Assembly: GCA_964392775.1 (NCBI GenBank)
Contig: CAYMRD010000011.1
Span: 40,410 to 104,409, forward strand
Reading direction: 5' to 3'
Source: an uncultured Bifidobacteriaceae bacterium
Lineage (GTDB): Bacteria > Bacteroidota > Bacteroidia > UKL13-3
Length of the DNA stretch: 64,000 nucleotides
Of this stretch, positions 1,861 to 54,833 are shown in pieces. The notes below the pieces were generated by a model that was not told the DNA's origin, did no database searches, and saw nothing but the letters and a program-made list of their open reading frames with translations. How positions within the stretch are numbered: the first letter of the stretch is position 1; every line of letters starts with the position of its first letter. The translations under genes were made by a program, and so were the position numbers.

Positions 1861-3063
1861 TTATTCAATAACGAGCTTACCGTTTATTCCAGATTGGGTT
1901 TTGTAGATATAAATCCCTTTAGGCAAAACAGAAACGTCAATAGTGTTTAATCCTGAATGGATTTGATTTGTTAATACGTTTTGTCCCATCAAATTGTAAA
2001 ATGCGATTGTTTCGGTTGTAAACTCAGGTGTTGCCTCTATTGTGATTATAGAAGTGGCCGGGTTTGGATAAACAGCCAACCGGGTGGTTTGGGATGTTTG
2101 GTTTTGAATGCCGGTATACGTGATGAAGTCGCTATATACTTCTTTTATCTGATTGATATAATAACCGGAGTCCTGGTTAAACCATTGGTTTATTCGCTGC
2201 ACCATAGCTCCGTCATTGTTATAGGTGATTAAATTTTTGTTGCCACTGCTTTTTGTCCAGTTTGTACCATCCCAATCTTCACTGTAATATTCTGTTTCAT
2301 TGTTATGGCTGTCATACGTGTATACCACACGACTCTCTAGAACATATAGGGAGTCTGCCCATCTGTAAAGATCTATCTTCGACAGCAGACTCAACTCCAA
2401 ATCGTTCGACCATTGATGCCACTGAATATTGCTATACCGCTCAGATTGTACAAATTGAAGGATTTCTTCATCCCAATACATTATTTCTACTTCTGTAGGT
2501 TCTCCGTTATTGTTGTAAGTAAAATACATCCGGGAGTCGTTTTGGTAAGTGGTGTCGGAAACCCAATATTCGCTTGTTAATTGTGAAAGCTGGTTTTGGT
2601 TATTATAAACATTTGTATTTCTGGTTGCGTCTAAAATTTCCCAAATGCCATTGTTGTATTGCGAGGACATGTAAGATGTTGAATTTCCATTTACATCATA
2701 CGTGTTAGTGCGTAAAAACGCAGAATCCCAAGTTTCAGTTTGGCCGTTAAAGATTAGAGAGAGGTGTTGAATCTCATGTCCTTTGGCATCATAGGAATAT
2801 TTGTTCTTATTATACGTTGTATTCTCTTCGATCAGTCGACCATGTGAATCGTAAACATTGTGGCTGGTATCCGTATGTTCTGTCCAATCATTTATACCAC
2901 TGCTCCACCAATTACGAAGGGTCAATTGAGGAAGGTATTGGGTAGTGGTTTTAGTGAATCCAATACTTGGCTGATGTTTAACCTTTGCAAAGGGTTTAGG
3001 TCTTGCGGAGGTTTGCTGCAAACCAAGTCCGAGTAAAGATAATAGTAGAATTTTTGTTTTCAT
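1861..3063 (-). CDS. Secreted protein with T9SS C-terminal sorting domain
   Basis: Signal peptide MKTKILLLSLLGLGLQQTSA. C-terminus has VYPNPATSIITIEA...GIYIYKTQ, the Por secretion tail. Confidence 0.75.
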   Translation of the reverse strand: MKTKILLLSLLGLGLQQTSARPKPFAKVKHQPSIGFTKTTTQYLPQLTLRNWWSSGINDWTEHTDTSHNVYDSHGRLIEENTTYNKNKYSYDAKGHEIQHLSLIFNGQTETWDSAFLRTNTYDVNGNSTSYMSSQYNNGIWEILDATRNTNVYNNQNQLSQLTSEYWVSDTTYQNDSRMYFTYNNNGEPTEVEIMYWDEEILQFVQSERYSNIQWHQWSNDLELSLLSKIDLYRWADSLYVLESRVVYTYDSHNNETEYYSEDWDGTNWTKSSGNKNLITYNNDGAMVQRINQWFNQDSGYYINQIKEVYSDFITYTGIQNQTSQTTRLAVYPNPATSIITIEATPEFTTETIAFYNLMGQNVLTNQIHSGLNTIDVSVLPKGIYIYKTQSGINGKLVIE

Positions 3064-3106: not shown

Positions 3107-3330
3107 ATGGTGATGTTGTAATATAGTGTTAATAATTCATTCAATGTATATCCGCAAGTGTTCCCAAATGCATATTTGGCACGGCTTTGTGGCGAGAGAT
3201 CTTTGCCACTAAGCCAAAGGGGCTCAAAGTATCACTAAGTTTAAATTCTACTGGTAAGCTTGCAGATATACACTTCATTTTATCCATTTAATTTGTGGAA
3301 ATTTTCTCTCAACACACTTTTACAACATAT
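3107..3330 (-). repeat. Copy 1 of a ~220-bp structured element (inverted paralogue of 25328-25545, ~95% identical), immediately upstream of the minus-strand T9SS gene
   Basis: Reverse complement aligns base-for-base with 25328-25545, with about 12 mismatches. Contains 15-bp terminal inverted repeats and internal hairpins. Confidence 0.8.
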
Positions 3331-3444
3331 AAAATAACAAAATCACCTGGATTGAGTCAGGAGGTATAAACAATAAAATCCTGTACATTTGCAGCTTAAA
3401 TAATTTCAATCATCAGGGCTATTTACCCTGTAATGTTTTGACCA

Positions 3445-4548
3445 ATGAGTAAAAAAGGAAGAATTCTGGTTGCCATGAGTGGCGGCCTGGACAGTACGGT
3501 TACAGCCGTTATGTTAGCCGAAGAGGGCTACGAAGTAGTAGGGATCACCATGAAAACATGGGACTATGCCACAGCAGGCGGGAGCAAAAAGGAAACCGGT
3601 TGCTGCAGTCTGGATTCCATCAATGATGCCCGAACCATTGCCGTTAAACACGGTATTCACCACATGATTTTAGATATCCGCGAAGAGTTTGGCGATTTTG
3701 TAATCAACAACTTTGTGGATGAGTATATCGCAGGCCGAACCCCCAATCCTTGTGTATTGTGCAATACGCATATCAAATGGGAGGCTTTGCTCAAACGTGC
3801 CAACCAGCTCGATTGTGAGTTTATTGCCACCGGGCATTATGCGCAGGTGCGTAACGAAAACAACCGTTATGTGGTTTCAAAAGGATTGGATGAAAACAAA
3901 GACCAGTCGTATGTTTTATGGGGATTGAGCCAGTCGAGTCTTGAGCGTACCCGGTTCCCGTTAGGTGGTTTCCGCAAAACGGATATTCGCCAGATGGCTA
4001 TTGATATGGGCTATGAAGAACTGGCTAAAAAAAGTGAGAGTTACGAAATATGCTTTGTGCCCGATAATGATTACCGTGGTTTCTTAAAACGCAGGGTTGA
4101 AGGACTGGAAGCGCAGGTAGAAGGCGGAGAGTTTGTAACCCGCGAAGGGAAAGTATTGGGCAAACACCGCGGATATCCGTTTTATACCGTTGGGCAACGT
4201 AAAGGGTTGGAAATTGCCGTTGGTGAACCTTTGTTCGTTTTAGAGATTCAGCCCGAAACCAATAAGGTTGTATTGGGTCGTGAGCATGAGCTGAAACGCA
4301 AAGGGATGTGGGTACGCGGACTGAATATGGGTAAATATGAATACCTTAATGAGCCGCTGGAAGCCCTGACCAAGGTGCGCTACAAGGATGCAGGTACCAC
4401 TTCAATGATTGAACAGGAAGACAACCGCATGAAGGTGATCTTTAATGATGATGTGAAAGCCATTGCGCCCGGACAATCAGCTGTGTTTTATGAAGGCAAT
4501 GATGTTGTGGGTGGAGGATGGATTGAAAAGGCGTTTGATGTTGTTTAA
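3445..4548 (+). CDS. mnmA: tRNA-specific 2-thiouridylase MnmA
   Basis: N-terminal PP-loop ILVAMSGGLDSTV and a conserved Cys-containing C-terminal domain. 367 aa. Confidence 0.9.
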   Translation: MSKKGRILVAMSGGLDSTVTAVMLAEEGYEVVGITMKTWDYATAGGSKKETGCCSLDSINDARTIAVKHGIHHMILDIREEFGDFVINNFVDEYIAGRTPNPCVLCNTHIKWEALLKRANQLDCEFIATGHYAQVRNENNRYVVSKGLDENKDQSYVLWGLSQSSLERTRFPLGGFRKTDIRQMAIDMGYEELAKKSESYEICFVPDNDYRGFLKRRVEGLEAQVEGGEFVTREGKVLGKHRGYPFYTVGQRKGLEIAVGEPLFVLEIQPETNKVVLGREHELKRKGMWVRGLNMGKYEYLNEPLEALTKVRYKDAGTTSMIEQEDNRMKVIFNDDVKAIAPGQSAVFYEGNDVVGGGWIEKAFDVV

Positions 4549-10790: not shown

Positions 10791-10906
10791 ATTTTTATTG
10801 CACATTGTTTGTTTTAAACGTTATGCCCGCGTGAGCGATTGCAGCGGAAATCCTTTTGCGTTGGGCTTGCAGGTAAGGAGCAAAAGATTTGAGCGAAAAG
10901 CGCGAC

Positions 10907-10972
10907 CCTGCAAGGATGTGCCACTACTTTGCCTTTTGATTAACCGAAATGCTGCTGCACATCCTTGCAGGG
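10907..10972 (+). other. Perfect 16-bp inverted repeat (ccctgcaaggatgtgc / gcacatccttgcaggg) with a 35-nt loop, 100 bp upstream of ccmC
   Basis: Arms at 10907-10922 and 10957-10972 are exact reverse complements. Confidence 0.85.
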
Positions 10973-18616: not shown

Positions 18617-18809
18617 ACAGACGACACCATTTCGTGTCTTTCTTCCTCATTAAAATTTGTGGCCTTCGTGTACAAGTCTAATACTCTTTTTTTTGTACAC
18701 GGACACTAAAAGGAAGAAAGATGAAAGACTACGAATAAAGTTCTAATTGACAGACGACCATGCTTCGTGCCTTTCTTCCTCATTAAAATTTGTGGCCTTC
18801 GTGTACAAG
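18617..18809 (+). repeat. Two direct 60-bp repeats (18617-18676, 18750-18809, ~88% identical) with a degenerate inverted copy between them (18686-18735)
   Basis: acagacgacacc...cattaaaatttgtggccttcgtgtacaag occurs twice. The middle segment ttttgtacacggacactaaaaggaagaaag is a partial reverse complement. Confidence 0.8.
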
Positions 18810-24169: not shown

Positions 24170-25297
24170 ATGTTAGAACTGACGTCTACTGCTTATTTAT
24201 TATTGGGATTTTTAGCCGTGGTAATGCTTATACAAGTGTATTACCATTTGGGTATTCTTGGTAAATTCGCTTTTTACAAACCTCAACCCTCAGCCAAAAG
24301 GGAAGAAGAGCCTGTATCGGTGATTATCGCAGCTCGCAATGAATACGAAAACCTTCAGCGTTATTTACCTTTTATTCTCAATCAGGATTACCCTGAATAT
24401 GAAGTGGTGGTTGTAAACCATTGCTCATGGGATATGAGTCAGCAATACCTTGAAGAATTGCAACAGGAATACAAACACCTGAAAGTATCGCAACTGATTG
24501 AGCAGGAAAAATATCCTACCGGAAAAAAGTTTGCCCTAACCATTGGTATCAAAGCAGCAAAGTATGATACTTTATTATTTACGGACGCTGATTGCGAGCC
24601 GGCATCCAATCAATGGATTCGCCAGATGCAAAGCAGGTTTACAGGCAATAAGGAAATCGTATTGGGGCATTCACCCTTTTATACCAAACCGGGATTGGTT
24701 AATCTGTATGCACGTTTTGAAACGTTTATGACAGCCATTTTTTATTTTGCATTTGCCTTAACAGGTAATGCTTTTATGGGTGTGGGACGGAACTTAGCTT
24801 ATAGAAAGGATATTTTCTTTCGCCATAAAGGATTTGCAAGTCACCAGCATATAATGAGCGGTGATGATGATTTGTTTGTAAATGAAGCAGCCACTCCTTA
24901 CAATGTGGCAATCGAGATTTCGCCTGAAAGCTTTGTGTGGAGTGAGGCTAAAGAAACATTTGAGAAATGGTCGCGCCAAAAAGCACGTCACATGACAACG
25001 GGTAAACACTACAAAGGCAAGCACCAACGTGCTTTGGGTATTTATTACGCTACGTTGTTTTTGTTTTATGGATTGTTGACAGCAAGCTTAATCGTTGCAA
25101 TAGCCGCGTGGCCTTTGGTGCTTGGTATCTGGTTCATTCGTTTTGTGTCGCAATTTGTGGTGTATTATCAATCAGCAGCTAAGCTTCAATGCAAGTCGAT
25201 GCTGTGGGGATTGCCTTTGTTGGATATTCTTTTCACGTTCTACATGCTTGTTTTTGGAACCAAAGGTTTGTTCACCAAAAACCCTAAAGTTTGGTAA
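24170..25297 (+). CDS. Membrane-anchored family-2 glycosyltransferase
   Basis: N-terminal TM, GT-A domain (VSVIIAARNE...TDADCEP), and a C-terminal multi-TM region. Confidence 0.7.
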   Translation: MLELTSTAYLLLGFLAVVMLIQVYYHLGILGKFAFYKPQPSAKREEEPVSVIIAARNEYENLQRYLPFILNQDYPEYEVVVVNHCSWDMSQQYLEELQQEYKHLKVSQLIEQEKYPTGKKFALTIGIKAAKYDTLLFTDADCEPASNQWIRQMQSRFTGNKEIVLGHSPFYTKPGLVNLYARFETFMTAIFYFAFALTGNAFMGVGRNLAYRKDIFFRHKGFASHQHIMSGDDDLFVNEAATPYNVAIEISPESFVWSEAKETFEKWSRQKARHMTTGKHYKGKHQRALGIYYATLFLFYGLLTASLIVAIAAWPLVLGIWFIRFVSQFVVYYQSAAKLQCKSMLWGLPLLDILFTFYMLVFGTKGLFTKNPKVW

Positions 25298-25327
25298 TAC
25301 AAACTATCTTCGATGAAAAATAAACGA

Positions 25328-25545
25328 CATGTTGTAAAAGAGTGTTGAGAGAAAATTGCCACAAATTAAATGGATAAAATGAAGTGTATATCTGCAAGCT
25401 TACCAGTAGAATTTAAACTTAGTGATACTTTGAGCCTTCGTGGCTTAGTGGCAAAGAACTCTCGCCACAAAGCCGTGCCAAATATACATTTGGGAACACT
25501 TGCGGATATACATTGAATGAATCATCAACACTATCATTACAACAT
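25328..25545 (+). repeat. Copy 2 of the ~220-bp structured element, ending 14 nt before the rsmG ATG
   Basis: ~95% identical to the reverse complement of 3107-3330. TIRs gtgtatatctgcaag / cttgcggatatacat. Internal hairpins ggcttagtggc...gccacaaagcc and ccaaatatacatttgg. Contains tacatttg, a TAnnTTTG match. Confidence 0.8.
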
Positions 25546-25559
25546 CACCAAAATAAACA

Positions 25560-26192
25560 ATGGATATTCTGCTCAAGTACTTTCCCGATTTAACCGGAAA
25601 GCAACAGCAACAATTTGAAGCTGCTTTTAACACATACAAAGAGTGGAACGAAAAAATCAATGTTGTATCACGTAAAGACATTGATTCGTTATTCGAAAAA
25701 CATATTCTCCACTCGCTGGCCATAGCCAAATTTGTTCAGTTTCGCCCCGATACTCATGTGCTGGATATTGGCACGGGAGGCGGATTTCCGGGTATTCCGT
25801 TGAGTATTATGTTTCCCGAAACAAACTTTACACTTTGCGATTCAATCGCTAAAAAAATCAAAGTTGCCGAAACGGTTTCCGAAACCATCGGGTTGATGAA
25901 TACTGATTTTGTGATTGGCAGGGTAGAGCAGCTCAAAGAAAGTTTCGACTTTATTGTGAGCCGTGCCGTTGCTCCCTGTGAGCAGCTATACCGCTGGACA
26001 CAGCATTATATCAACGAAGAAAACAATAACCCTAAGTTTAATGGTTACTTGTTACTTAAAGGAGGTGATTTAAAAGAAGAGATTAAAGCCCTGCGCCAAA
26101 TCAATAAAAAATTGATTGTTGAAGAGTTTGCTTTGAGCCAGTGGTTTGAAGAAGAATTTTTTGAAACAAAAAAGCTGGTGTATATCTATTAA
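25560..26192 (+). CDS. rsmG: 16S rRNA (guanine527-N7)-methyltransferase RsmG
   Basis: GidB-family N-terminus and SAM motif DIGTGGGFPGIPL. Confidence 0.85.
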   Translation: MDILLKYFPDLTGKQQQQFEAAFNTYKEWNEKINVVSRKDIDSLFEKHILHSLAIAKFVQFRPDTHVLDIGTGGGFPGIPLSIMFPETNFTLCDSIAKKIKVAETVSETIGLMNTDFVIGRVEQLKESFDFIVSRAVAPCEQLYRWTQHYINEENNNPKFNGYLLLKGGDLKEEIKALRQINKKLIVEEFALSQWFEEEFFETKKLVYIY

Positions 26193-26248: not shown

Positions 26249-28903
26249 TTAGTTTTTAATAAACTTATTGGCATACGATTGTTTTCCATCAGTTACCACA
26301 ACAAAATACACGCCTGATTGTAAGTGAGCTATACTAACAGATTCGTGTGCATTTCCGCTCAATAATCTTCTACCCGTAATATCCATAATTTGATAGGTGG
26401 CAGCTGGGGTTAGGCCACTTACTTGCAACGCAATACTTTGGGTTGCAGGATTAGGATATACAACAAGTGATTGGTGTTGTGCTGGTGCAGTTGTTTTTAT
26501 CCCCGTGGTCAAATCAAGGCAACTCGGGAATGATTGATTTGCATACCAGTTGCGAATCTTGTCAATATCGGTATCCAGTTTATTGAATGAACCGGTAGCA
26601 CCTCCTGAGGTAGTTCTCGAATACACAATAGCATATTCAATGGTATGTTTGTCGCCAGAAAGCACTTGACCCGGTACACTCAAGGTTGATAACATTCGTC
26701 TATCACCCGGAGTATTTCCTGAACTTCTTTCCGTCCAATCTGCTCGTCCGGCTAAGTCATTATTACCCGGGAACATAAAACTGGCTGTGTCAACTCCACC
26801 TTTTCCATCTCCACCATATGTAAGAAAGGTTCCATCTTTCCATTTGCTATTTAAATATCCCCAATAATGTTCAGGCCTTGATGGATTACCTTTGACTGAA
26901 AAATCGTTGTTGTAATACATAAAACCACTCATGTTATTGGTATTTGAGTGGTTATCTAGAATAGCAATCCCAACAGCAGGGGGATTGGCTCCATATCCCT
27001 GCATTCCTTCATCATCATCATCTCCATTATACCCAATTGCATAGTTTTTACTGGGGTTACATTCAATATAATCATCATTAAAATTTCCTAAATCAATATC
27101 TGTCCATATTCCATATTTTACCGTGTCGTATGTCTGATTGGTGCGGTTGTAAATATCGTATTGGTAAAAGGTTGTATAGTTTAAGGCAGTATTGCTATCG
27201 TTGTCTTGTATGTCATCACAGGTATACCCATAAGCCGAAGCATGAACCTCAAACTTTAAAGGAAGCCCTGTCGTTTCAGAATGAATACCTCCATTATCAT
27301 TAAAAATCCAAAACAACATTTGATCGCCTTTAATTTTAGGATAATCGCCATTCATAGGATTGTATTTGCCATCGCTATTAACATCCACAAAAGGGGCAAG
27401 CTTACTGGCATAACCATTTGCAGAGTCTCCATGAGCAGGCCAACTCATTAAGTTTTCAGGTACGGTATAGGTTCCGTCAGTAACTTTCCCGTCTGCAAAT
27501 TTTGTTTTAAATTCTTCAATAGTTTGTCTGTTTATTCTCCATATACGATCAAACTTTTGTTGGGTAGCGGCATCGGTTGAGGCAGTTCCTATGGTTAAAG
27601 GTCCGGGGAAATAATCATTCCCGCTCTGGCGATAGGTTTGCGCAGCTACATGGAGTTCATTATTGGTAACGCCCCCCATCCACAAGGCGGAGGCAAATAT
27701 TGCCCGTTTGCAGCTCCCTTTGGGTACTTCATAGCCTCCATTCTGTAAATCCCAAAACATATCCCCTCTGTTGAGAACAGGCGTACTTACCTTATTAATA
27801 TTGAGGTAGCTCATCGTTGGGACTTCGTCCACATCCGAATAGTTATTCAAATCAATCATAAATAAACTATCTCCCCCCGCATAACCATTTCTGGAACACC
27901 ACTGGAGCTGATTGGCAGAGGTAACAGCGCAGAATATACCATCCAGAGGAAAATTCGAATGCGATGGGTTTTTGTATGTGGTAGTCTTGTTTGCCTCCAG
28001 TTCTATGAATTGTATTTTACTTATATTTGAGCTCGTGAAATTTGAAGGAACAACAGGGTGAGTTCCTTTTATTCCAAACCCGTACACGTTATTCCGAAAT
28101 CCATTGCTGCCACAATAGTTGGTATATGCCTGAGCTGTACTAATCGTATTGCCTTGTACCGTATACACGCCTCCATAAATGTCGGAACCGGTCATTGTAG
28201 TGTCTGTGCCAATCCAGATTGCACCATTGGCTGTTTGTTCAATGGTATTTATTTTATCTGTTTTTAAACCGGAGTTTGTTTTGTTAAAAGTGCTCCATGT
28301 TCCATTTGACAGTTTAGATACTCCTTTGTCCGTTCCTATCCATACCTGACCGTTTTTATCAGCTAAAATAGTATTCACTTTATTATCAGCTATTGAATGA
28401 GAAGCCACGGTATAGCTCGTCCAAGTGCTTCCATCCAATTTAGAAACCCCATTGTTGGTTGCTACCCAAACAGTATTGTCGAAAACGGAAACATCGTAAA
28501 CCGAATCGCTTACAATACCTGAGTTACTTTGATTAAAGATGGTCCATGTATCACCCTCCTTTTTCACCAGACCGCTCAGGGTTCCTATCCACACTACTGA
28601 GCCTTTAATTTCTAAAGAAGTAAGAGAGTTGGTAGGTAAACTTGAGTTGTTCTTATTCCAGGTTGTCCATGTGGTTCCATCATATTTAGCCAAACCAATT
28701 GCAGAAGTCGTAAAGTTGATTCCCAGCTTACGGGTTCCAAAAGCAATCCAGGTATTGTTCTGGTCGTCAATTTTTAGGTCCGTTTTAATGCGCTTGTCTA
28801 ATGTTGTTCCGGTTGGTAATGCAACAGACGAGTAAGGACTTTGTGCCCCAATCTGTGATGTAACCACAGCTAGTCCAATCAATAGTAAAAGATGTTGTTT
28901 CAT
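26249..28903 (-). CDS. Large secreted beta-propeller (two-component-regulator-propeller-like repeats) protein with T9SS C-terminal sorting domain
   Basis: Signal peptide MKQHLLLLIGLAVVTSQIGA. Repeated W-I-G-T...G(V/L)SK-(L/F)-(D/S)G..W units. C-terminus VVYPNPATQSIALQV...GVYFVVV. Confidence 0.75.
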   Translation of the reverse strand: MKQHLLLLIGLAVVTSQIGAQSPYSSVALPTGTTLDKRIKTDLKIDDQNNTWIAFGTRKLGINFTTSAIGLAKYDGTTWTTWNKNNSSLPTNSLTSLEIKGSVVWIGTLSGLVKKEGDTWTIFNQSNSGIVSDSVYDVSVFDNTVWVATNNGVSKLDGSTWTSYTVASHSIADNKVNTILADKNGQVWIGTDKGVSKLSNGTWSTFNKTNSGLKTDKINTIEQTANGAIWIGTDTTMTGSDIYGGVYTVQGNTISTAQAYTNYCGSNGFRNNVYGFGIKGTHPVVPSNFTSSNISKIQFIELEANKTTTYKNPSHSNFPLDGIFCAVTSANQLQWCSRNGYAGGDSLFMIDLNNYSDVDEVPTMSYLNINKVSTPVLNRGDMFWDLQNGGYEVPKGSCKRAIFASALWMGGVTNNELHVAAQTYRQSGNDYFPGPLTIGTASTDAATQQKFDRIWRINRQTIEEFKTKFADGKVTDGTYTVPENLMSWPAHGDSANGYASKLAPFVDVNSDGKYNPMNGDYPKIKGDQMLFWIFNDNGGIHSETTGLPLKFEVHASAYGYTCDDIQDNDSNTALNYTTFYQYDIYNRTNQTYDTVKYGIWTDIDLGNFNDDYIECNPSKNYAIGYNGDDDDEGMQGYGANPPAVGIAILDNHSNTNNMSGFMYYNNDFSVKGNPSRPEHYWGYLNSKWKDGTFLTYGGDGKGGVDTASFMFPGNNDLAGRADWTERSSGNTPGDRRMLSTLSVPGQVLSGDKHTIEYAIVYSRTTSGGATGSFNKLDTDIDKIRNWYANQSFPSCLDLTTGIKTTAPAQHQSLVVYPNPATQSIALQVSGLTPAATYQIMDITGRRLLSGNAHESVSIAHLQSGVYFVVVTDGKQSYANKFIKN

Positions 28904-54439: not shown

Positions 54440-54833
54440 TGTAATACTTTGTACACGAAGACACGAAATCTGAATAAAGAGGAAAGGCACTAAGTATTGC
54501 CATCAAAAAAGACACGCCTTGTCCTGATGTTGTAACTGTCACACTGAGTTTATCGAAGTGTGCATAGGTGGGGAATATTCAATTCTTGGCGGGCTCCGGA
54601 GGAGCCTAATCTCTCTATAAAAACCAAACCCAGGGTATTCGCGCTCCGTAGGTGCGCAATCGCAATACAATGTTTTCTGTTTTTTAGAAATAGGAAGAAG
54701 AAAGGTTTCGCTCCTCTGGAGCTCCTGTCTTTTACGTGGTTTAATGGGCTATAGAGATTGACCTCATCAGGAGGCGGATGCTACCATTTAAGCACTCATT
54801 CTTAGTGTTATTAAATTGCTCTTCTCCCGATAG
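54440..54833. repeat. 390-bp non-coding convergent spacer dense in hairpins, carrying a copy of the tttgtacacgaag...acacgaaat repeat family
   Basis: 54447-54480 matches the 18.6-kb repeat arms. Hairpins ggctccggaggagcc, gcgctccgtaggtgcgc, gctcctctggagc, cccgatagttatcggg. Confidence 0.6.

What the first reader, a model, noticed from the sequence alone, without database searches (positions are those of the whole stretch)
25328..25545. Internal architecture of the element: 15-bp terminal inverted repeats, two conserved hairpins, a -7 promoter box and a decaying 45-codon frame
Copy 2 has TIRs gtgtatatctgcaag (25388-25402) and cttgcggatatacat (25506-25520). Inside are an 11-bp stem, ggcttagtggc ... 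gccacaaagcc, and a palindrome ccaaatatacatttgg. The palindrome contains tacatttg, the Bacteroidota TAnnTTTG -7 consensus, pointing at rsmG; copy 1 has tgcatttg there. A 45-codon ATG to TGA frame (MKCISASLPVEFKLSDTLS...) is open in both copies. It differs by non-conservative multi-nucleotide changes (SLRGL versus SPFGL), so it is probably not coding. TIRs around a promoter resemble Bacteroidota invertible-promoter switches as well as MITEs.
Basis: partly seen in the sequence, partly recalled or inferred. Interest (0 to 1): 0.55.

Follow-up and report, generated by a model that had tools for sequence, protein, structure and literature searches.

The report
Small mobile DNA repeat (MITE)
The feature is a 224-bp non-coding mobile-element relic (a MITE) that inserted, with a 9-bp target duplication, just upstream of rsmG in an uncultured freshwater Bacteroidota bacterium; it is an ordinary kind of element, not a demonstrated promoter switch.

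Summary
The quoted "TIRs" are internal, not terminal. The element is 224 bp (25326-25549, + strand). A second copy, about 95% identical, lies at 3109-3331 (- strand) with unrelated flanks. The true termini are an imperfect inverted repeat, ATGTTGTAA-N4/5-GTGTTGA. Copy 2 is flanked by an exact 9-bp direct repeat, AAAATAAAC. Six contigs of a sister species (about 80% nt identity) have only a 30-bp spacer between the same glycosyltransferase gene and rsmG. Removing the element plus one repeat copy restores a colinear spacer, so this is a clean insertion with a target-site duplication. The 48-codon frame has no protein homologue, and the copies differ in it by 4 amino-acid changes and no synonymous change. 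TAnnTTTG occurs at chance frequency in the window and is broken in copy 1. No recombinase or transposase was found in 50 of 54 window ORFs. There is no Rfam match. Two copies cannot test covariation. No homologue turned up in exact-pattern scans of genome and metagenome collections, or in about 280 kb of related contigs searched with a covariance model. Verdict: a new MITE family of a known kind. An effect on rsmG expression through a strongly folded leader is plausible but unshown. Inversion is not supported and not excluded.

The parts
25326..25549 (+). Copy 2 of the element (224 bp, 36% G+C against 42% for the window), inserted between the GT2 glycosyltransferase gene (24170-25297) and rsmG (25560-26192)
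   Evidence: Alignment of the two copies. Empty site in sister-species contigs L210-L215. GC.
25317..25325 (.). Left copy of the 9-bp target-site duplication AAAATAAAC
   Evidence: Read. A flanking 9-mer repeat with +-4 nt slack occurs at 0.1-0.2% of window positions.
25550..25558 (.). Right copy of the 9-bp target-site duplication AAAATAAAC
   Evidence: Removing 25326-25558 restores a spacer colinear with the sister species.
25329..25348 (+). Left terminal inverted repeat: ATGTTGTAA, 4 nt, GTGTTGA
   Evidence: the repeat finder I4 and I6. Outer stems.
25525..25545 (+). Right terminal inverted repeat: TCAACAC, 5 nt, TTACAACAT
   Evidence: the repeat finder I4 and I6..
25384..25398 (+).
   Evidence: I2.
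25499..25513 (+). Internal inverted repeat, right arm CTTGCGGATATACAT. It has two G.T positions against the left arm (25504 and 25513).
   Evidence: I2.
25398..25435 (+). Predicted imperfect hairpin in the left part of the core
   Evidence: MFE and consensus fold.
25442..25474 (+). Hairpin GGCTT-A-GTGGC ... GCCAC-A-AAGCC (5+5 bp, A.A mismatch); the loop differs between copies (A/T at 25458)
25478..25493 (+). Palindrome CCAAAT-ATAC-ATTTGG. It carries TACATTTG (25485-25492, +) and TATATTTG (25479-25486, -). The A/G difference at 25486 removes both in copy 1.
25370..25516 (+). 48-codon open frame, judged non-coding
   Evidence: No homologue among 5.8 billion proteins. 4 amino-acid differences and 0 synonymous differences between copies.
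3109..3331 (-). Copy 1 of the element (223 bp). It lies 45 nt upstream of an orphan 400-aa T9SS-tail gene (3063-1861, -) and is divergent from mnmA (3445-4548). Its target duplication is unclear: a TTATTT core on both sides, out of register.
   Evidence: Gene identities.

Best explanation

Anatomy. It has imperfect terminal inverted repeats of about 20 bp (ATGTTGTAA-N4/5-GTGTTGA). Inside these is a further 15-bp inverted repeat and three small hairpins, so either strand can fold into one long branched stem-loop. It encodes no transposase.

How it moved (inferred). It was mobilised in trans by a DDE-type transposase of a related insertion sequence that makes 9-bp staggered cuts. That partner was not found.

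What is shown. Copy 2 landed in the A/T-rich 30-bp spacer between a GT2 glycosyltransferase gene and rsmG. This happened after the split from the sister species, and it duplicated AAAATAAAC.

Likely consequence (inferred). The spacer is very short in relatives and lies just downstream of a conserved TATCTTC(G/C) box. The element is therefore most likely transcribed as part of the rsmG leader or intercistronic RNA. There it would form a stable structure of about -66 kcal/mol ending 10 nt before the start codon. That structure could alter mRNA processing, stability or translation, as described for Correia and ERIC elements. An element-borne outward promoter is possible but not indicated.
For: (1) Two copies are 95% identical over 221 bp with unrelated flanks and sharp boundaries.

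(2) Empty site. Six contigs of a sister species (rsmG at least 90% aa, about 80% nt identity) have the same GT2->rsmG synteny with a 30-bp spacer and no element. More distant relatives L003, L005 and L007-L010 have 30-64 bp spacers and no element. Deleting 25326-25558 from the window gives a spacer colinear with the sister species, 115/140 identical with only single-nt gaps.

(3) An exact 9-bp direct repeat abuts both ends. The chance of this is about 0.1-0.2%.

(4) Terminal inverted repeats are 9/9 plus 8/8.

(5) No coding capacity. The ORF has no homologue and shows 4 non-synonymous against 0 synonymous differences.

(6) The element is AT-rich (36% against 42% G+C) and intergenic.

(7) k=31 Logan contigs of the same organism break inside the element at the positions expected for a repeat: L203 ends at 25388 = 25358+30, and L204/L216/L217 start at 3164 = 3134+30.

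(8) These features match the published definition of prokaryotic MITEs: under 500 bp, TIRs of 4-30 bp, flanking direct repeats in young copies, AT-rich, intergenic, and transcripts that form stable stem-loops (PMC10969869).
Against: Only two copies could be seen.

No autonomous partner or transposase was found. There is none in 50 of 54 window ORFs. Exact-pattern scans of the genome and metagenome collections returned nothing.

Copy 1 has no clear target duplication and no empty site to compare with.

The differences between copies fall mostly in unpaired positions: 10 of 13 columns, while 64% of columns are paired. One G-C becomes G-U on the + strand. This hints weakly at selection on the fold rather than neutral decay (roughly p=0.03 by my binomial estimate).

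Both copies point at the downstream gene.
Confidence: 0.8

Rival explanations
1. Invertible promoter (inverton). A site-specific recombinase flips the segment between the 15-bp internal repeats, or between the outer repeats. This would switch transcription of the downstream gene on and off. Both loci would be served by one global invertase, as Mpi does in Bacteroides fragilis.
For: Inverted repeats flank 100 bp (inner) or about 190 bp (outer), within the usual inverton size; over 75% are under 300 bp (PMC11602134). Both copies sit directly upstream of a gene, and copy 1 precedes a T9SS-secreted surface protein. A TAnnTTTG motif lies on both strands of the central palindrome in copy 2. Contig L001 starts at 25505, immediately after the G.T mismatch position 25504 of the inner repeat, rather than at the 25493 expected from two copies alone. 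Correia MITEs have been reported to invert (PMC10969869).
Against: A 9-bp target duplication and an empty orthologous site are signatures of transposition, not of a resident switch. No recombinase was found among 50 of 54 window ORFs. The -7 motif is at chance frequency, lacks a -33 TTG, and is destroyed on both strands in copy 1. rsmG is a housekeeping gene. The start of L002 (25511) does not fit the mismatch positions. No contig with the flipped orientation was seen.
Confidence: 0.06
2. A structured non-coding RNA: a cis-acting leader or small RNA gene selected for its fold on the + strand and duplicated to two loci. The 'TIRs' would be RNA helices rather than transposase sites.
For: The + strand folds better than the - strand: -66.2 against -61.8 kcal/mol, z -5.6 against -3.7. 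In the predicted folds the 15-bp internal helix is uninterrupted on the + strand but bulged on the - strand. 10 of 13 differing columns are unpaired, and one paired change is G-C to G-U. Both copies are in sense orientation just upstream of a start codon.
Against: No Rfam family matches even at E<=10. There are 0 compensatory pairs. The element is absent from the orthologous site of every relative examined, and a covariance model finds nothing in about 280 kb of relatives' contigs. Bounded 95% identity with a target duplication is not how cis-regulatory RNAs usually spread. MITE transcripts fold stably anyway (PMC10969869).
Confidence: 0.07
3. A small protein gene (48 aa, MDKMKCISASLPVEFKLSDTLS...) carried by a repeat.
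For: The frame is open in both copies.
Against: No homologue in 5.8 billion proteins, and the frame was never called as a gene. All four differences are amino-acid-changing, two of them radical (L>P, R>F), with none synonymous. The frame runs straight through the helices of the fold.
Confidence: 0.02

Closest known systems
Prokaryotic MITEs in general (definition in PMC10969869). Within Bacteroidota, the Porphyromonas gingivalis MITEs such as BrickBuilt (PMC4596501).
   Same: Under 500 bp, terminal inverted repeats, flanking direct repeat, no transposase, AT-rich, intergenic, and a transcript predicted to fold into a long stem-loop.
   Different: No sequence similarity was detected to anything in the phage and plasmid BLAST collections, no exact-pattern match in the genome and metagenome collections, and no Rfam match. 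It carries no minisatellite. Copy number appears low. The host is an uncultured freshwater lineage (UKL13-3-like MAGs).
Correia (CREE/NEMIS) elements of Neisseria and ERIC/IRU of enterobacteria
   Same: What it probably works like: a small TIR-bounded repeat sitting between promoter and start codon, co-transcribed with the gene, forming a hairpin that can be processed or can change expression. Correia elements can also carry promoters (PMC10969869).
   Different: Not a member. It has a 9-bp target duplication rather than the TA of Correia (from my own knowledge), and unrelated sequence. No promoter, IHF site or RNase III cleavage has been shown here.
IS5-family, IS903-group insertion sequences (lead from memory only)
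   Same: A 9-bp target duplication. One terminus reads GGTGATGTTGTAA..., which resembles the IS903 end GGCTTTGTTGAATAAATC as I recall it (GG at positions 1-2, TGTTG at 6-10).
   Different: The similarity is about 10 of 18 positions, recalled rather than tested. The left terminus begins GACATG. No transposase was found. Other families also give 8-10 bp duplications.
Bacteroides invertible promoters (Mpi-type invertons)
   Same: Inverted repeats flanking 100-200 bp upstream of genes, with several similar copies per genome.
   Different: Here there is a target duplication and an empty orthologous site. There is no nearby recombinase, no conserved promoter motif, and no evidence of two orientations.

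Membership tests
Prokaryotic MITE | Short (<500 bp) and without transposase coding capacity | tested here: met
   224 bp. The only ORF is 48 codons, has no homologue, and shows 4 non-synonymous and 0 synonymous differences.
Prokaryotic MITE | Terminal inverted repeats (about 4-30 bp) | tested here: met
   25329-25337/25537-25545 pair 9/9 and 25341-25348/25525-25532 pair 8/8. The same holds in copy 1 (18 nt, 83%).
Prokaryotic MITE | Target-site duplication flanking the element | tested here: met
   Copy 2: an exact 9-bp AAAATAAAC on both sides, chance about 0.1-0.2%. Copy 1 is inconclusive: a TTATTT core, out of register.
Prokaryotic MITE | Insertion polymorphism: empty site in related genomes | tested here: met
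   L210-L215 have a 30-bp spacer colinear with the window minus the element and one repeat. L003 and L005-L010 also lack it.
Prokaryotic MITE | Multiple dispersed copies in the genome | tested here: inconclusive
   Two copies in 64 kb. Contig-break positions argue against further copies identical to either copy's left end.
Prokaryotic MITE | A cognate autonomous IS with matching termini supplying transposase | tested here: not met
   No transposase in 50 of 54 window ORFs. Exact-pattern scans for the termini and core found nothing in the genome or metagenome collections. Many described MITEs also lack a known partner, so this lowers the claim but does not exclude it.
Inverton (invertible promoter) | Both orientations present in a population | not testable with these tools
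   No read-level data. All Logan contigs stop inside the element.
Inverton (invertible promoter) | Site-specific recombinase (tyrosine or serine) acting on the repeats | tested here: not met
   No recombinase or integrase domain in 50 of 54 window ORFs. The remainder of the genome was not testable.
Inverton (invertible promoter) | A promoter inside the invertible segment | tested here: inconclusive
   TACATTTG is present in copy 2 only. The motif is at chance frequency (65 against 71.7 expected). There is no sigma-70-type site and no TTG about 19-21 nt upstream.
Curated structured RNA family (Rfam 15) | Match to a covariance model | tested here: not met
   No hit at gathering thresholds, and none relevant at E<=10.
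Structured RNA (any) | Compensatory base changes supporting helices | tested here: inconclusive
   69 predicted pairs: 0 compensatory and 1 G-C to G-U. Only two sequences are available.
IS5 family / IS903 group derivative | 9-bp duplication and GG(C)-type termini shared with a transposase-bearing IS | not tested
   The 9-bp duplication is met. The terminus comparison rests on memory. No reference IS sequence or transposase was examined.

The most novel reading that the evidence does not exclude
The element is a MITE that has been domesticated. Its sense-strand transcript would act as a selected, structured 5' leader, or the segment would flip between its nested inverted repeats. Either way it would control a 16S rRNA methyltransferase gene (rsmG) and a lineage-specific T9SS surface protein. 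Three observations would then be signal rather than noise: the substitutions that avoid helices, the G.U pairs specific to the + strand, and the odd contig break at the repeat mismatch position 25504.
Probability: 0.1. Interest if true: 0.55.

Novelty: new member of a known kind. Interest (0 to 1): 0.22.

Why it matters
It matters modestly. It documents a previously undescribed MITE family in an uncultured freshwater Bacteroidota lineage, with an unusually clean before-and-after pair (empty site and 9-bp duplication). It shows that this family can land between a gene and its upstream signals without destroying a housekeeping gene. In practice it explains why short-read assemblies of this organism break at these two loci. 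It also warns that nested inverted repeats plus a chance TAnnTTTG can mimic an inverton. If the leader structure or an inversion proved functional, it would be an example of MITE exaptation controlling rsmG, a gene whose loss gives low-level streptomycin resistance (from my own knowledge). Nothing here shows that.

Tried and rejected
Searches for more copies.
- Exact-pattern scan for the hairpin GGCTTAGTGGC-N8-14-GCCACAAAGCC in genome contigs and in metagenome contigs: 0 hits each.
- Three-block terminal pattern ATGTTGTAA-N4-7-GTGTTGA-N172-202-TTACAACAT in metagenome contigs: 0 hits.
- The 16-base terminal pattern in viral contigs gave only single matches per contig, taken as chance.
- blastn 'distant' against plasmids and phages gave only chance hits.
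- Protein search with the 48-aa frame found nothing.
- Covariance model R1, built from the two copies, found only the two copies and the truncated contig ends when searched in the window plus 26 related or same-organism loci (about 280 kb).

Empty site for copy 1. This was not obtainable. The downstream 400-aa T9SS gene has no homologue but itself. The region upstream of mnmA is rearranged in relatives.

Extending the window with Logan contigs. About 10 kb to the left and 2 kb to the right held no further copy. One look-up failed on a wrongly guessed start codon.

Other checks.
- Recombinase or transposase in the window: none in 50 of 54 ORFs.
- Sigma-70 promoter and intrinsic terminator scans: nothing inside the element.

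Rejected readings: a coding gene, a known Rfam RNA, and the 15-bp repeats as the element's termini.

Full report
**What is there.**
The 15-bp inverted repeat is at 25384-25398 and 25499-25513, not 25388-25402 and 25506-25520. It pairs 13/15 as Watson-Crick plus two G.T positions. The '11-bp stem' (25442-25474) is 5+5 bp around an A.A mismatch. The palindrome CCAAATATACATTTGG (25478-25493) is a 6-bp stem with a 4-nt loop. The open frame runs 25370-25516, 48 codons from the first ATG.

**The second copy and the true boundaries.**
A second copy lies on the minus strand at 3109-3331. The two copies are 95% identical over 221 bp, E=1e-97, with unrelated flanks. It ends in a second, outer inverted repeat, ATGTTGTAA (25329-25337) / TTACAACAT (25537-25545) and AGTGTTGA (25341-25348) / TCAACACT (25525-25532). 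The element is 25326-25549, 224 bp, at 36% G+C against 42% for the window.

**It is an insertion.**
rsmG relatives were fetched from genome collections. Closer ones came from the 90%-identity cluster of the window's RsmG. In six contigs of a sister species (about 80% nt identity, L210-L215), the same GT2 glycosyltransferase gene is followed by rsmG after only 30 bp: TAA-TACACACTATCTTCCACAAAAATATTACAC-ATG.

The window reads TAA-TACAAACTATCTTCGATGAAAAATAAAC-[224-bp element]-AAAATAAAC-A-ATG. Deleting the element and one AAAATAAAC leaves a spacer colinear with the sister sequence, 115/140 identical across the junction region with only single-base gaps. More distant relatives (L003, L005, L007-L010) also have 30-64 bp spacers and no element.

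The exact 9-bp direct repeat sits at 25317-25325 and 25550-25558, abutting the ends. A flanking 9-mer repeat with +-4 nt slack occurs at only 0.1-0.2% of window positions. An empty orthologous site together with a target-site duplication is the signature of transposition.

**Assembly behaviour.**
Logan (k=31) contigs of the same organism, from four sequencing runs, all stop inside the element. L203 ends at 25388, which is 30 nt past the last left-hand difference between the copies. L204, L216 and L217 start at 3164, 30 nt before the first right-hand difference. L205 starts at 3269. This is what a two-copy repeat gives. It also argues against further copies identical to either copy's left end.

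One detail does not fit. L001 and L002 start at 25505 and 25511 rather than 25493. Position 25504 is the G.T mismatch position of the inner repeat. A population variant, a third copy or an inversion could cause this. L002 does not fit the inversion reading, and the point stays unexplained.

**Coding potential.**
The 48-aa frame shares no words with any of 5.8 billion proteins. The copies differ in it by L>P, R>F, N>I and I>M, with no synonymous change.

**Promoter claim.**
TACATTTG (25485-25492) fits TAnnTTTG. That pattern occurs 65 times in the window against 71.7 expected from shuffles, roughly a one-in-four to one-in-five chance for any 224-bp stretch on two strands. The single A/G difference at 25486 abolishes the motif on both strands in copy 1. 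No TTG lies 19-21 nt upstream. No sigma-70-type promoter or intrinsic terminator lies inside the element.

A box TATCTTCG (25305-25312) just after the GT2 stop codon is conserved in the sister species (TATCTTCC) and in L009/L010 (TACCTTCG). L007 and L008 have TACTTTTG there. If that box is the native -7 element, or if rsmG is co-transcribed with the GT2 gene across a 30-bp spacer, the insertion lies within the transcript. This step is inferred, not shown.

**RNA or DNA structure.**
The + strand folds at -66.2 kcal/mol (z=-5.6) and the - strand at -61.8 (z=-3.7). In the predicted folds the 15-bp internal helix is uninterrupted on the + strand but bulged on the - strand. Total G.U counts do not favour the + strand.

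Of 13 differing columns between the copies, 10 are unpaired in the copy-2 fold, although 64% of columns are paired. One paired change is G-C to G-U, and none is compensatory. Counting events, this is roughly p=0.03 by my own binomial estimate. It is a hint of constraint on the fold, not evidence.

Rfam has no match at gathering thresholds or at E<=10.

**Search for relatives and for enzymes.**
- Exact-pattern scans for the core hairpin in the genome and metagenome collections found nothing.
- A scan for the termini in the metagenome collection found nothing.
- BLAST against plasmids and phages found nothing.
- A covariance model of the two copies found only them, and the truncated contig ends, in about 280 kb of window, relatives' and same-organism contigs.
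- Pfam scans of 50 of the 54 ORFs of at least 90 aa in the window found only housekeeping functions, with no transposase and no recombinase.

The autonomous partner is therefore unknown. The 9-bp duplication and a terminus reading GGTGATGTTGTAA recall the IS903 group of the IS5 family. That is memory, not a test.

**Copy 1.**
It lies 45 nt upstream of a 400-aa protein with a T9SS sorting domain. That protein has no homologue anywhere but itself. The copy is divergent from mnmA. Relatives have different genes upstream of mnmA, so no empty site could be reconstructed. Its flanks share only a TTATTT core, out of register. Just outside its left end, GGTGATTTTGTTAT matches the element's own right terminus at 12 of 14 positions. 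This may be a relic of another end.

**Interpretation.**
The anatomy meets the published description of prokaryotic MITEs: under 500 bp, TIRs of 4-30 bp, direct repeats in young copies, AT-rich, intergenic, and stably folding transcripts (PMC10969869).

I put 0.8 on a MITE mobilised in trans by an unseen DDE transposase. Its most likely present-day effect is a long structured leader in front of rsmG and of the T9SS gene, working like Correia or ERIC elements (PMC10969869) without being a member of those families.

The rivals are an inverton (0.06), a selected non-mobile RNA (0.07) and a small protein (0.02). Invertons are of similar size (PMC11602134), but the target duplication, the empty site, the missing recombinase and the non-conserved promoter motif speak against one here.

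**Verdict.**
This is a new member of a known kind, and ordinary in nature. Interest is low to moderate (0.22).

Noticed in passing
window 18617-18676, 18750-18809 (+), 18690-18722, and 54440-54490 (-): A second, unrelated small repeat family. A 60-nt unit (…TTTCGTGTCTTTCTTCCTCATTAAAATTTGTGGCCTTCGTGTACAAG) occurs twice, 133 bp apart, upstream of uvrC, with a partial inverted copy between the two. A related fragment lies in the 460-bp spacer at 54.4 kb. CTTCGTGTACAA occurs 3 times against 0.24 expected. There is no Rfam match. A Logan contig also starts in that spacer (about 54697).
   Followed up: partly
window 10821-10911 (+): Flavo-1 RNA (RF01705), 55.7 bits against a gathering score of 42. 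This is consistent with a Flavobacteriia-like or related Bacteroidota host.
   Followed up: no
window 26249-28903 (-): An 884-aa protein with a T9SS sorting domain and Reg_prop repeats lies between rsmG and the DUF5686 gene. It is absent in the sister species, where rsmG is followed directly by the DUF5686 gene. This is a second lineage-specific insertion next to the element.
   Followed up: partly
window 1861-3063 (-): The 400-aa T9SS-tail protein downstream of copy 1 is an orphan. Among 5.8 billion proteins, the only hit at E<=1e-20 is itself.
   Followed up: partly
window 3414-3440 (+): Hairpin CAGGGCTATTTACCCTG followed by TAATGTTTTG in the mnmA leader, just before the start codon. It is conserved almost unchanged in relatives L206-L209 and may be a leader or attenuator structure.
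   Followed up: no
window 3334-3347: Immediately outside copy 1's left end, GGTGATTTTGTTAT (read on the - strand) matches the element's right terminus (GGTGATGTTGTAAT, reverse complement) at 12 of 14 positions. It may be a remnant of another element end.
   Followed up: no
L001 and L002 (Logan contigs) against window 25493-25511: Contigs entering copy 2 from the rsmG side start at 25505 and 25511 instead of the 25493 expected for a two-copy repeat at k=31. Position 25504 is the G.T mismatch position of the inner inverted repeat. The cause is unresolved: a variant, a third copy, an inversion or a coverage gap.
   Followed up: partly
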